Assembly: GCF_902713615.1 (NCBI RefSeq)
Contig: NC_052162.1
Location: 93,320,559 to 93,384,558, forward strand
Direction: 5' to 3'
Origin: Scyliorhinus canicula
Lineage: Eukaryota
Length of the DNA stretch: 64,000 nt
Part shown: piece after piece, positions 1 through 15,656 of the stretch
Position numbering within the stretch: the first letter of the stretch is position 1
Layout: every line of letters starts with the position of its first letter
Notes under the pieces: generated by a model
The model's database searches: none
Seen by the model: the letters and a program-made list of their open reading frames with translations, nothing else
Told to the model about the DNA's origin: nothing
Made by a program: the position numbers and the translations under genes

Positions 1-3000
1 GTGCTGGACTGGGTCACCCTGCAGTGCCGTGCTGGGCTGGGTCACCCTGCAGTGCCGTGCTGCACTGGGTCACCCTGCAGTGCCGTGCTGGACTGGGTCA
101 CCCTGCAGTGCCGTGCTGGACTGGGTCACCCTGCAGTGCCGTGCCGTGCTGGACTGGGTCACCCTGCAGTGCCGTGCCGTGCTGGTCTGGGTCACCCTGC
201 AGTGCCGTGCTGGTCTGGGTCACCCTGCAGTGCCGTGCCGTGCTGGTCTGGGTCACCCTGCAGTGCCGTGCCGTGCTGGTCTGGGTCACCCTGCAGTGCC
301 GTGCCGTGCTGGTCTGGGTCACCCTGCAGTGCCGTGCTGGTCTGGGTCACCCTGCAGGGCCGTGCTGGTCTGGGTCACCCTGCAGTGCCGTGCTGGACTG
401 GGTCACCCTGCAGTGCCGTGCCGTGCTGGACTGGGTCACCCTGCAGTGCCGTGCCGTGCTGGACTGGGTCACCCTGCAGTGCCGTGCTGGACTGGGTCAC
501 CCTGCAGTGCCGTGCCGTGCTGGTCTGGGTCACCCTGCAGTGCCGTGCTGGACTGGGTCACCCTGCAGTGCCGTGCTGGACTGGGTCACCCTGCAGTGCC
601 GTGCTGGACTGGGTCACCCTGCAGTGCCGTGCTGGACTGGGTCACCCTGCAGTGCCGTGCTGGACTGGGTCACCCTGCAGTGCCGTGCTGGACTGGGTCA
701 CCCTGCAGTGCCGTGCTGGACTGGGTCACCCTGCAGTGCCGTGCTGTACTGGACTGGGTCACCCTGCAGTGCCGTGCTGGGCTGGGTCACCCTGCAGTGC
801 CGTGCTGGACTGGGTCACCCTGCAGTGCCGTGCTGTACTGGGTCACCCTGCAGTGCCGTGCTGGACTGGGTCACCCTGCAGTGCTGTGCTGGTCTGGGTC
901 ACCCTGCAGTGCCGTGCCGTGCTGGTCTGGGTCACCCTGCAGTGCCGTGCTGGACTGGGTCACCCTGCAGTGCCGTGCTGGTCTGGGTCACCCTGCAGTG
1001 CCGTGCTGGACTGGGTCACCCTGCAGTGCTGTGCTGGACTGGGTCACCCTGCAGTGCTGTGCTGGACTGGACTGGGTCACGTTGCAGTGCCGTACTGGAC
1101 TGGTCTGGGTCACCCTGCAGTGCCGTGCTGGTCTGGGTCACCCTGCAGTGCCGTGCTGGTCTGGGTCACCCTGCAGTGCCGTGCTGTGCTGTACTAGAAT
1201 GGTCTGGGTCACCCTGCAGTGCCGTGCTGGGCTGGGTCACCCTGCAGTGCCGTGCTGGACTGGGTCACCCTGCAGTGCTGTGCTGGTCTGGGTCACCCTG
1301 CAGTGCCGTGCTGTACTGGACTGGGTCACCCTGCAGTGCCGTGCTGTACTGGACTGGGTCACCCTGCAGTGCCGTGCTGTACTGGACTGGGTCACCCTGC
1401 AGTGCCGTGCTGGGCTGGGTCACCCTGCAGTGCCGTGCTGGACTGGGTCACCCTGCAGTGCCGTGCTGGACTGGGTCACCCTGCAGTGCCGTGCTGGACT
1501 GGGTCACCCTGCAGTGCCGTGCTGGACTGGGTCACCCTGCAGTGCCGTGCTGGACTGGGTCACCCTGCAGTGCCGTGCTGGACTGGGTCACCCTGCAGTG
1601 CCGTGCTGGACTGGGTCACCCTGCAGTGCTGTGCTGGACTGGACTGGGTCACGTTGCAGTGCCGTACTGGACTGGTCTGGGTCACCCTGCAGTGCCGTGC
1701 TGGTCTGGGTCACCCTGCAGTGCCGTGCTGGTCTGGGTCACCCTGCAGTGCCGTGCTGTGCTGTACTAGAATGGTCTGGGTCACCCTGCAGTGCCGTGCT
1801 GGACTGGGTCACCCTGCAGTGCTGTGCTGGTCTGGGTCACCCTGCAGTGCCGTGCTGTACTGGACTGGGTCACCCTGCAGTGCCGTGCTGTACTGGACTG
1901 GGTCACCCTGCAGTGCCGTGCTGGGCTGGGTCACCCTGCAGTGCCGTGCTGTACTGGACTGGGTCACCCTGCAGTGCCGTGCTGGGCTGGGTCACCCTGC
2001 AGTGCCGTGCTGGACTGGGTCACCCTGCAGTGCCGTGCTGGACTGGGTCACCCTGCAGTGCCGTGCTGGACTGGGTCACCCTGCAGTGCCGTGCTGGACT
2101 GGGTCACCCTGCAGTGCCGTGCTGGACTGGGTCACCCTGCAGTGCCGTGCTGTACTGGACTGGGTCACCCTGCAGTGCCGTGCTGTACTGGACTGGGTCA
2201 CCCTGCAGTGCCGTGCTGTACTGGACTGGGTCACCCTGCAGTGCCGTGCTGGACTGGGTCACCCTGCAGTGCCGTGCTGTACTGGACTGGGTCACCCTGC
2301 AGTGCCGTGCTGGTCTGGGCCACCCTGCAGTGCCGTGCTGTACTGGACTGGGTCACTCTGCAGTGCCGTGCTGTACTGGGCTGGGTCACCCTGCAGTGCC
2401 GTGCTGGACTGGGTCACCCTGCAGTGCCGTGCTGTACTGGGTCACCCTGCAGTGCCGTGCTGTACTGGGCTGGGTCACCCTGCAGTGCCGTGCTGTACTG
2501 GGCTGGGTCACCCTGCAGTGCCGTGCTGTACTGGGCTGGGTCACCCTGCAGTGCCGTGCTGTACTGGGCTGGGTCACGTTGCAACGCCGTGCCGTGCTGG
2601 ACTGGACTGGGTCACCCTGCAGTGCCGTGCTGTACTGGACTGGGTCACCCTGCAGTGCCGTGCTGGACTGGGTCACGTTGCAATGCCGTGCCGTGATGGA
2701 CTGGGTCACCCTGCAGCGCCGTGCTGGACTGGGTCACCCTGCAGTGCCGTGCCGGACTGGGTCACCCTGCAGTGCCGTGCTGGACTGGGTCACCCTGCAG
2801 TGCCGTGCCGGACTGGGCTGGGTCACGTTGCAACGCCGTGCCGTGCTGGACTGGACTGGGTCACCCTGCAGTGCCGTGCTGTACTGGACTGGGTCACCCT
2901 GCAGTGCCGTGCTGTACTGGGCTGGGTCACGTTGCAACGCCGTGCCGTGCTGGACTGGACTGGGTCACCCTGCAGTGCCGTGCTGTACTGGACTGGGTCA

Positions 3001-3277
3001 CCCTGCAGTGCCGTGCTGGACTGGGTCACGTTGCAATGCCGTGCCGTGATGGACTGGGTCACCCTGCAGTGCCGTGATGGACTGGGTCACCCTGCAGCGC
3101 CGTGCTGGACTGGGTCACCCTGCAGTGCCGTGCCGGACTGGTCACGTTGCAGTGCCGGAGTGGGTCACCCTGCAGTGCCGTGCCGGACTGGGTCACGTTG
3201 CAGTGCCGGAGTGGGTCACCCTGCAGTGCCGTGCCATACTGTGCTCGACTGGGTCACCCTGCAATACTGGACTGGAC
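1..3277. repeat. Tandem satellite/minisatellite, 28-bp unit CTGGGTCACCCTGCAGTGCCGTGCTGGA with +5-bp variants; runs off the window start
   Basis: Directly visible tandem array of roughly 100+ units. Variants insert GTGCC, CTGTA or CTGGA, and divergence rises toward 3270. Confidence 0.98.
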
Positions 3278-3464
3278 AAATGAAATGTAAAATGAAAATC
3301 GCTTATTGTCACAAGTAGGCTTCAAATGAAGTTACTGTGAAAAGCCCCTCGTCGCCACATTCTGGAGCCTGTTCGGGGAGGCTGGTACGGGAATTGAGCC
3401 GTGATGCTGGCCTGCCTTGGTCTGCTTTCAAAGCCAGCGATTAAGCCCTGTGCTAAACCAGCCC
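3278..3464 (-). mobile_element. Short (~190 bp) tRNA-headed SINE with (CATTT)n tail
   Basis: Reverse complement starts GGGCTGGTTTAGCACAGGGC, has a B-box-like segment and ends ...TGTGACAATAAGCGATTTTCATTT. Six further copies in the window. Confidence 0.9.
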
Positions 3465-7409: not shown

Positions 7410-7922
7410 CAGGTTGAGCATCCCTTATCCGAAATTTCGAAAACCAAAAGATTCCTAAATCTGCACTTTGTTTTGAGCACACCATGCTTGCGCAGTTCCA
7501 ATGTTCCACACATGCACAGTTCCCAACGCGCACCGCGCATGCGCAGTTCCCAATGTTTCACACATGCACAGTTCCCAACGCGCACCGCACATGCGCAGTT
7601 CCCAATGTTTCACACATGCACAGTTCCCAACGCGCATTGCACATGCACGGTTCCCAATGTTTCACACATGCACAGTTGCCAACGCGCACCGCACATGCGC
7701 AGTTCCCAATGTTTCACACATGCACAGTTCCCAATGCGCACTGCACATGCGCAGTTCCCAATGTTCCACACATGCGCAGTTCCCAATGTGCGCCACAAAT
7801 GGGAAGCTCCCAAAGCGCACTGCACATTTGCAGTTCCCAATGCGGACTGCACCTGCGCAGTAAATTCCGAAATCTGATACACACTTGGTCTCAAGCATTT
7901 TGGATAAGGGATTTTCAACCTG
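7410..7922. mobile_element. TcMar-Tigger-like (Tigger4/MER46-like) MITE with internal tandem array
   Basis: TIRs CAGGTTGAGCATCCCTTATCCGAAA and TTTGGATAAGGGATTTTCAACCTG, flanked by TA at 7408-7409 and 7923-7924. Confidence 0.9.
7485..7862. repeat. 52-bp dimeric (25+27 bp) tandem repeat inside the Tigger-like MITE
   Basis: Unit GCGCAGTTCCCAATGTTTCACACAT+GCACAGTTCCCAACGCGCACCGCACAT; period 52 (7541, 7593, ...). Confidence 0.92.
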
Positions 7923-13502: not shown

Positions 13503-14129
13503 GGGTGGGATTCTCTCAGCCCGGGGCCGGACAGGAGAATCGTCCCGACCGGCGCGAATCACGCCACGCCGTCCCGCTACCGGGACGTGTGGAGAATTGG
13601 TGCTGGCGCGGTGCCAGTCGGGGACTGCTCGAAGCATGCCCCCACATCCCCCCCACCTGCCGATACTCGGCCCAGGATGGGTCAAGCGGCCGTAGCAAAA
13701 ACTCTGAGTTCCGCTGGCGCCATTCTAACCTGCTCTCAGCCGGCGGGACCGCGGTGTGGAAGGGTCCGGGGGCGGCCTGTGGGGGGGAGAGGGTCCGTTG
13801 TGGCCTGTCCCGGCAGGCTGGCCTCTTATGCTGGGGGCCTCCTTTCTTCCAGGCCGGCCCCTGCAGCCCTACGCCATGTTGCGTAGCGGCTGACGCGGAG
13901 AAGGGATCCACTGCGCACGCGCACGTTGGCGCCGGTGCCACTGTGCCTGCCGCAGTGCCCAGTTGACACCGGGATCAGCAGCTGGAGCGGCGTGGGTCAC
14001 TCCAGTGCCGTGCTGGCCCCCTGTAGGAGCCAGAATTGCTGATCCTGAGGCCATGTTGACACCGTTGGAAAATACGACGCCGTTTCCGATGGCATCAGCG
14101 CTTAGCCTCAGGATCACCGAATCCCACCC
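13503..14129. mobile_element. Harbinger-like MITE (GC-rich)
   Basis: TIR GGGTGGGATTC...GAATCCCACCC; 3-bp TSD AAA (13500-13502 and 14130-14132). Confidence 0.88.
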
Positions 14130-14882: not shown

Positions 14883-15445
14883 GGGTGGGATTCTCTGATC
14901 CTGAGGCTAAGTGTTGTGACCGTCGTAAATGCTGTCGCGTTTCACGACGACGTCAACTTGCCCTCAGGAGCAGCGATTCTGACCTCTTCAGGGGGCCAGC
15001 ATAGCACTGGAGTGACCCACGCCGCTCCAGTTGCCGATGCCGGCGTCAGATGGGCACCACGGGTCTGTGCATGTGCAGTGAGACTGGTGCCAATGCGCGC
15101 ATGTGTAGTGGCTTCGTTCTCCGCGCCGGCCCCGACACAACATGGTGAGGGGCTCCAGGGGCCGGCGCAGAACAAAAGAGGCCCCCAGCCCGAGAGGCTG
15201 GCCCATCGATCAGTAAGCCCTGTTCGCGCGTGAGGCCGCAGCCGAGGTTCCCGCGAGGGTCGGACCCCCCCCCTCCCCATCAGACCGCCCCAAGATGCAT
15301 GCACGCTGAGGTCCCGCTGGTTAAGAGCACACGTGGATGGCGCCGACAGAACTCTGGGTTTTTGCACGGCTGCTTGGCCCATCCCAGGTGGAGAATCACC
15401 GGGGGGGGGGGCGGCCAGCGCCAATGGCGCTGATTCTCCGCTCGC
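14883..15445. mobile_element. Harbinger-like MITE related to 13503-14129, inverted, one end lost
   Basis: Begins GGGTGGGATTCTCTGATCCTGAGGCTAAG, close to the reverse complement of 14101-14129; homology continues to about 15440. Confidence 0.85.
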
Positions 15446-15656
15446 CAGCTGCATCTCACCTCCAACCCCCTCTCATTGAGTCACAACAATCCTGATGGCA
15501 CCGAATCTCCAGAGATTCCATTCTCCAATCTTTAAAGGGTCTGGTGGGCTCTGGCAACAATGCGTCTTGTCCTGCTATCTCGTCCCATGATCTCCTACTA
15601 TTCCTCTCCTCAGCTCTCTGTCCTTTCCAACTCTATAATGCAGAAACAGTAACACA

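What the first reader, a model, noticed from the sequence alone, without database searches (positions are those of the whole stretch)
1..3277. Satellite monomer matches an internal segment of the Harbinger MITE 11 kb away
Seen: the satellite reads TGGGTCACCCTGCAGTGCCGTGCTGG. The MITE at 13993-14016 reads TGGGTCAC--TCCAGTGCCGTGCTGG, an exact 8-mer plus an exact 14-mer, with one mismatch and a 2-nt gap. The sibling MITE has the same segment on the - strand at 14996-15019. Known: satellites can arise by amplification of short internal segments of DNA transposons. Inference: this array was seeded from a Harbinger MITE, linking the transposon family to satellite birth. Any shared role as a binding site for the Harbinger partner protein is speculation.
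Basis: partly seen in the sequence, partly recalled or inferred. Interest (0 to 1): 0.72.

Follow-up and report, generated by a model that had tools for sequence, protein, structure and literature searches.

The report
Minisatellite grown from hAT-type transposon end
A 28-letter repeat, copied about 140 times at one spot, begins exactly at the end of an old jumping gene of another family and likely grew from that junction; its likeness to the nearby Harbinger element is likely chance, although that Harbinger family does carry such repeat arrays elsewhere in this genome, which is a known kind of process.

Summary
The match is there as described and is better than shuffles (48 of 10,000), but the array does not sit in the MITE. 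It is a single-locus minisatellite of 4,208 bp and 141 units that starts about 930 bases before the window. Its first 8 bases are the last 8 bases of an old non-autonomous DNA transposon of another family (profile hit E=1e-16 up to the last model base; 8-bp target duplications; hAT-type). No MITE sequence lies within 10 kb of either end. The bases where the monomer departs from the MITE are those of that terminus. Other MITE segments do the same, one reaching 13 kb. Of 14 outside loci examined, 13 keep MITE flanks on both sides. The 14th is an orphan with an equally good match, so such matches recur. Verdict: ordinary transposon-derived minisatellite; MITE origin of this array unlikely. The scan noted a similar transposon-end minisatellite in another genome (e1-9048825).

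The parts
1..3277 (+). In-window part of a minisatellite of 4,208 bp and 141 units (90 of 28 bp, 41 of 33, 4 of 38, 2 of 43, 2 of 23, one 27, one terminal 24). It starts outside the window, at G000:C17:93319628 (L031:8970), where its first 8 bases are the last 8 bases of an old hAT-type non-autonomous transposon remnant (L031:8644-8977, also outside the window; left end not found in this copy)
   Evidence: single locus; transposon remnant: nhmmer E=1e-16, model 145-428 of 428, profile from 25 other copies, second locus ending at the same base, family ends and TSD
3278..3463 (-). Short dispersed repeat (SINE-like; label recalled, not tested) whose A/T-rich tail abuts the array's right end
   Evidence: 13 further matches in the 123-kb stretch; no tRNA gene or Rfam match
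13503..14129 (+). Harbinger-type MITE, 627 bp, TIR GGGTGGGATTC, target duplication AAA
13993..14016 (+). MITE segment that resembles the monomer
14883..15447 (-). Second MITE copy, about 100 bp missing at its 5' end; segment at 14996-15019 has two substitutions

Best explanation
The array is a single-locus minisatellite whose first unit begins on the last 8 bases of an old hAT-type non-autonomous transposon, and it likely arose in place by duplication of a 28-bp junction (8 bp of terminus plus 20 bp of flank), so its likeness to the Harbinger MITE is likely coincidental. Shown: position, overlap with the terminus, family structure, absence of MITE flanks, unit lengths in 5-bp steps. Inferred: a first duplication by slippage or repair at the junction; growth by unequal exchange or conversion between units; 5-bp indels from slippage within the degenerate pentamer run of the flank; no function.
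For: Profile from 25 other copies aligns through its last base to the first TCACCCTG of the array, E=1e-16. 26 terminus-motif matches against 1 control; homology stops at that base and the flanks differ. Family has short TIRs and an 8-bp duplication peak: 81 of 152 bases (53%) against 21-36% for other lengths, 0 of 20,000 permutations, 19 paired copies. No MITE profile hit between about 34.5 kb upstream of the window and window 13,494 at E up to 5. The monomer reads CCCTG (terminus) where the MITE reads CTC; the 8-mer is absent from 31 of 31 MITE copies; 0 genome hits for monomer start plus MITE continuation. 13 of 14 outside arrays found with MITE 14-mers keep MITE flanks on both sides; the 14th (L193, 29 bp x 52) scores up to 34-36 against MITE copies with no MITE flank, so an equal match recurs without one. 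The hAT-type family is older (66% to consensus over 110 bp) than the MITE (86%), which argues against its insertion into a MITE.
Against: The MITE match is uncommon (0.13-0.8% of shuffles), about as uncommon as the 8-bp terminus match (602 of 50,000 dinucleotide and 47 of 50,000 mononucleotide shuffles), so the verdict rests on flanks and position, not on p-values. The exact 14-mer starts right after the terminus. About 8,000 copies carry the segment (4,201 exact 19-mers; 16 of 31 copies match), roughly one per 0.5 Mb, so even one copy within 12 kb is about a 1-in-20 event (my arithmetic) and there are two. One of 141 units has the MITE's ACTC. This very segment is amplified in four MITE copies. 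The L193 orphan could itself be MITE-derived. MITE copies were best hits, which inflates their identity. The left end and target duplication of this hAT-type copy were not found, and the unamplified state in a relative was not seen.
Confidence: 0.8

Rival explanations
1. Composite: a break at the hAT-type terminus was patched with about 14 bases copied from a MITE (possibly the copy 11 kb away), or a deletion joined the terminus to the inside of a MITE, and that junction was then amplified.
For: The 14-mer begins on the first base after the terminus. The neighbouring copy is among the 3 of 31 with the full 24-mer. The match is rare in shuffles.
Against: No MITE continuation at the right end and no MITE remnant within 10 kb. 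The junction is not at the shared GGTCAC microhomology. The family ages differ. An equal match occurs in another flankless array.
Confidence: 0.09
2. One reading: the array grew inside a MITE copy, like the four arrays found elsewhere, and both MITE flanks were later deleted, the left deletion landing on an 8-bp microhomology at the hAT-type terminus.
For: Four MITE copies hold arrays of this segment, periods 17, 23, 29 and 32 bp. About 23 of 28 monomer positions align to the copy, within the family's divergence.
Against: Needs two deletions and a chance 8-bp match to a terminus. 13 of 14 outside arrays keep both flanks. All four arrays of this segment keep the GGCCCC continuation, which none of the 34 unit types here has. 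Consensus is less similar than the copy; 0 hits.
Confidence: 0.05
3. Convergence on an instability motif: this G+C-rich pentamer-periodic motif is prone to amplify wherever it occurs, possibly through a sequence-specific protein (recombination-hotspot or Harbinger DNA-binding protein; names recalled), so arrays share it without descent.
For: Five independent arrays share the 14-mer; two adjacent probes (MITE profile positions about 530-585) account for 12 of 14 outside loci, against 1 each for two other probes.
Against: The adjacent, different 14-mer gives more loci (at least 8) than this one (4); only four segments were probed and genome copy numbers were not counted for three of them. No binding evidence.
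Confidence: 0.05

Closest known systems
TE-derived minisatellites (Ahmed and Liang 2012, PMC3389668; parts 1-3 of 4 of the text read)
   Same: Single-locus, G+C-rich array of 20-100 bp units that begins on a transposon copy and expands locally; that paper counts 23% of human minisatellites as TE-derived and reports hotspots within some TE consensus sequences.
   Different: Only 8 of 28 bases come from the element, so this array would fail that paper's own criterion (overlap of at least one period, or 70% similarity); the donor is an old DNA transposon, not Alu, L1 or ERV.
MITE-borne tandem repeats: Xstir on Xmix and miDNA4 in Xenopus (as reviewed in PMC9659126; passages read)
   Same: The Harbinger-type MITE here holds tandem arrays inside individual copies, from dimers to 13 kb; the review also notes TIRs as frequent monomer sources.
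   Different: Here each array has its own period or phase at one locus, so they look like independent events after insertion, not one satellite riding on a moving subfamily; the window's array is not among them.
hAT superfamily non-autonomous elements, Blackjack-like termini (resemblance recalled; PMC12730594 passages name Blackjack as an animal hAT lineage)
   Same: Short TIRs and 8-bp target duplication.
   Different: No transposase-bearing partner found; 8-bp duplications also occur in Zisupton (PMC12730594).

Membership tests
PIF/Harbinger MITE (13503-14129) | Short TIRs, small size, high copy | tested here: met
   TIRs; 7,774 candidates; 4,201 exact 19-mers
PIF/Harbinger MITE (13503-14129) | 3-bp target duplication (PMC6850418 passages) | tested here: met
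   12 of 25 copies exact at 3 bp, 69% identity against 26-31% at other lengths; 25 of 31 copies had both ends
PIF/Harbinger MITE (13503-14129) | Ends shared with a DDE_Tnp_4 (PF13359) transposase element | tested here: met
   6 of 30 transposase loci were fetched wider (three chosen because a TIR-like end was already seen): paired similar TIRs 5.3-5.5 kb apart in 5 of 6, exact 3-bp duplication in 3 of 5, weak MITE-profile hit at one end in 6 of 6
MITE-derived tandem array (window array) | Array flanked in register by the rest of the MITE | tested here: not met
   contrast 13 of 14 outside loci
MITE-derived tandem array (window array) | Monomer significantly similar to the MITE consensus | tested here: inconclusive
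   score 29, 6 of 4,000 shuffles; lower than to the nearby copy
hAT non-autonomous element (upstream) | Short TIRs | tested here: met
hAT non-autonomous element (upstream) | 8-bp target duplication (feature recalled) | tested here: met
   53% at 8 bp against 21-36%; 0 of 20,000 permutations; 19 paired copies from 48 loci, the rest lacking a second end under the mismatch limits or being a duplicate
hAT non-autonomous element (upstream) | hAT transposase element with the same ends | tested here: inconclusive
   0 of 30 top PF05699 loci (1.5-kb flanks) hit the family profile; 3,298 candidates, 150 scored
Satellite DNA family (multi-locus or very long) | Same monomer at several loci or in very long arrays | tested here: not met
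   All close matches lie in one 4.2-kb array; other hits are 71-79% and have different units
Variable-number minisatellite | Length polymorphism between individuals | not testable with these tools
   Only short contigs were served; one search covered just the first two units of the array

The most novel reading that the evidence does not exclude
A short stretch in the 3' half of this Harbinger MITE is a sequence-specific tandem-amplification hotspot, bound by a host recombination protein or the Harbinger DNA-binding partner; it has seeded about a dozen independent arrays up to 13 kb, and can be copied onto unrelated breaks such as this hAT-type end to start orphan arrays.
Probability: 0.07. 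Interest if true: 0.6.

Novelty: new member of a known kind. Interest (0 to 1): 0.22.

Why it matters
Modest. It is a clean case of why a short monomer match cannot assign a repeat's origin without the flanks: the true neighbour lay about 930 bases outside the window. The side result, a MITE family with at least 13 tandem duplications from dimers to 13 kb in one genome, is a usable series for studying how minisatellites start and grow, but the process is already described in human and Xenopus.

Tried and rejected
Left end and target duplication of the local hAT-type copy: not found. MITE remnants near the array: none at E up to 5. A MITE subfamily reading like the monomer: 0 hits. The segment as a unique hotspot: not supported; 4 loci against at least 8, 1 and 1 for three control probes, and 125 of the 529 hits were not examined (529 minus 358 in the C2 array, minus 46). 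A null with real G+C-rich flanks gave 724 of 10,000 but is confounded by true shared repeats and is not used. Similar arrays on C2, C3 and C11 have other units: C2 runs into a SINE-like body, and none has the hAT-type end. Ortholog: contigs of organism B cover most of L031:6906-8339 at about 92-95% but none covers the transposon end; a hole in contigs proves nothing, so the ancestral state stays open. No tRNA or Rfam match. No Harbinger transposase ORF was evident among ORFs of 150 aa or more in the window (read by eye, not scanned). Paper searches (listings and abstract starts only) showed no description of these elements; the library is open-access only and Repbase or Dfam were not available. 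No earlier notes on this genome.

Full report
Setting. The window is G000:C17:93320559-93384558 of a 4.22-Gb genome in 646 contigs. Its repeats recall a cartilaginous fish (recalled, not tested).

Observation. The array fills window 1-3277. With the upstream DNA it is 4,208 bp and 141 units, starting about 930 bases before the window; 139 of 141 unit lengths are 23, 28, 33, 38 or 43 bp, that is, 5-bp steps within a degenerate pentamer run. All close matches in the genome lie in this one array. Score 34 against window 3291-64000 is reached by 48 of 10,000 dinucleotide shuffles, 78 of 10,000 pentamer-structured shuffles and 13 of 10,000 with 16 terminus-like bases fixed. So the match is uncommon for one window, though a genome with many such arrays (2 long ones in the 123 kb examined) will hold some by chance (inference).

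The MITE. It has short TIRs and 3-bp target duplications (12 of 25 exact). It shares its ends with 5.3-5.5-kb elements that carry a PF13359 transposase (paired TIRs in 5 of 6 loci fetched, exact 3-bp duplication in 3 of 5). Harbinger-type is therefore well supported. About 8,000 copies carry the segment (4,201 exact 19-mers; 16 of 31 aligned copies match). The consensus is less like the monomer than the nearby copy (29 against 34; G 16, A 14 of 31 at 13999, a CpG site).

What the array touches. Upstream it runs into another dispersed element: a locus on C5 shares the sequence up to the same place, and a terminus motif finds 26 places against 1 control, with unrelated DNA beyond. A profile from 25 copies, this one excluded, aligns to L031:8644-8977 at E=1e-16 and ends on the first TCACCCTG of the array. 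The family has short TIRs and a duplication peak at 8 bp (81 of 152 bases, 53%, against 21-36%; 0 of 20,000 permutations; 19 paired copies of 48 loci, some pairings possibly wrong). That fits hAT (feature recalled), but 8-bp duplications are not exclusive (Zisupton, PMC12730594 passages) and no transposase partner turned up in 30 loci. The family is old: 66% to consensus, against 86% for the MITE, whose copies were best hits. Downstream the array abuts the tail of a SINE-like repeat. No MITE profile hit lies between about 34.5 kb upstream of the window and window 13,494. The monomer has the terminus letters CCCTG where the MITE has CTC; none of 31 copies holds that 8-mer and a genome search for such a variant found none.

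A search for tandem pairs of the 14-mer gave 112 hits: 56 in this array and 56 at four other loci. All four lie inside MITE copies with both flanks in register: 23 bp x 3.1 (C2), 17 bp x 55 (C7), 29 bp x 49 (C15), 32 bp x 9 (C17). Controls show this is a general habit of the family. One probe near the TIR gave 1 dimer, one mid-element probe a 31 bp x 9.4 array. The adjacent 14-mer gave at least 8 loci, among them 33 bp x about 393 (13 kb, C2) and 31 bp x 78 (C18); 125 of its 529 hits were not examined. In all, 13 of 14 outside loci keep both MITE flanks. The 14th (L193, C9, 29 bp x 52) has none; its three commonest units score 36, 34 and 24 against the best MITE copy and 26, 26 and 17 against the consensus: a second case like this one, which is either another chance match or another orphan.

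Mechanism. Most likely (0.8) a 28-bp stretch across the transposon terminus was duplicated in place and expanded by exchange between units, with pentamer slippage making the length variants. Position and structure are shown; the steps are inferred from the minisatellite models summarised in PMC3389668 (parts 1-3 of 4 read). Against this: the two coincidences are of similar size (terminus 8-mer in 602 of 50,000 dinucleotide shuffles), the 14-mer starts right at the junction, two segment-bearing copies lie within 12 kb, and the unamplified state was not seen (one search has no relative's contig over the junction). A composite junction (0.09), a MITE-born array stripped of both flanks (0.05) and convergence on an unstable motif (0.05) remain open.

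Comparison and verdict. TE-derived minisatellites are common (23% in human, PMC3389668), and MITE- and TIR-derived tandem repeats are reviewed in PMC9659126 (passages read). Seven paper searches showed nothing on these elements, in an open-access library only; no supplements were read, and repeat catalogues in supplements of genome papers may already list both families. New member of a known kind; interest 0.22.

Noticed in passing
L146:5752-L147:8682 (G000:C2:5860751-5873681): 13-kb array of a 33-bp unit (about 393 copies) inside one MITE copy, both flanks in register; it lies among several other long minisatellites.
   Followed up: partly
L132, L133, L134, L135, L136, L137, L143, L185, L186, L188, L189, L192: Twelve further MITE copies with internal tandem duplications of 2 to 78 units, periods 17-32 bp.
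   Followed up: yes
L070:4123-5746 (G000:C2:5131122-5132745): 33-bp x 49 array that runs directly into the body of a SINE-like element, apparently its amplified 5' head; it shares an exact 14-mer with the window monomer.
   Followed up: partly
L193:4036-5562 (G000:C9): 29-bp x 52 array matching another MITE segment about as well as the window array does, with no MITE flank.
   Followed up: partly
L067:8379-L068:3793 and L068:5472-8425 (G000:C3:9538378-9548424): Two arrays of the same 26-bp unit in inverted orientation, 1.7 kb apart, with a 31-bp array between them.
   Followed up: no
G000; L179-L184: Very large Harbinger transposase family (37,069 first-look candidates; many open frames of about 450 aa among the 150 scored), full-length elements 5.3-5.5 kb.
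   Followed up: partly
L031:6860-9000; runs X13-X16: Four small runs (about 240-300 million letters, kind not on record) hold 75-82% of the words of this stretch, more than the larger DNA runs; possibly RNA or enriched libraries, which might mean the region is transcribed.
   Followed up: no
L033:3329-6993: A second long minisatellite (26 bp x about 141, G-rich) about 23 kb upstream of the window.
   Followed up: no
window 7489-7861: 52-bp tandem repeat of about 6-7 units.
   Followed up: no
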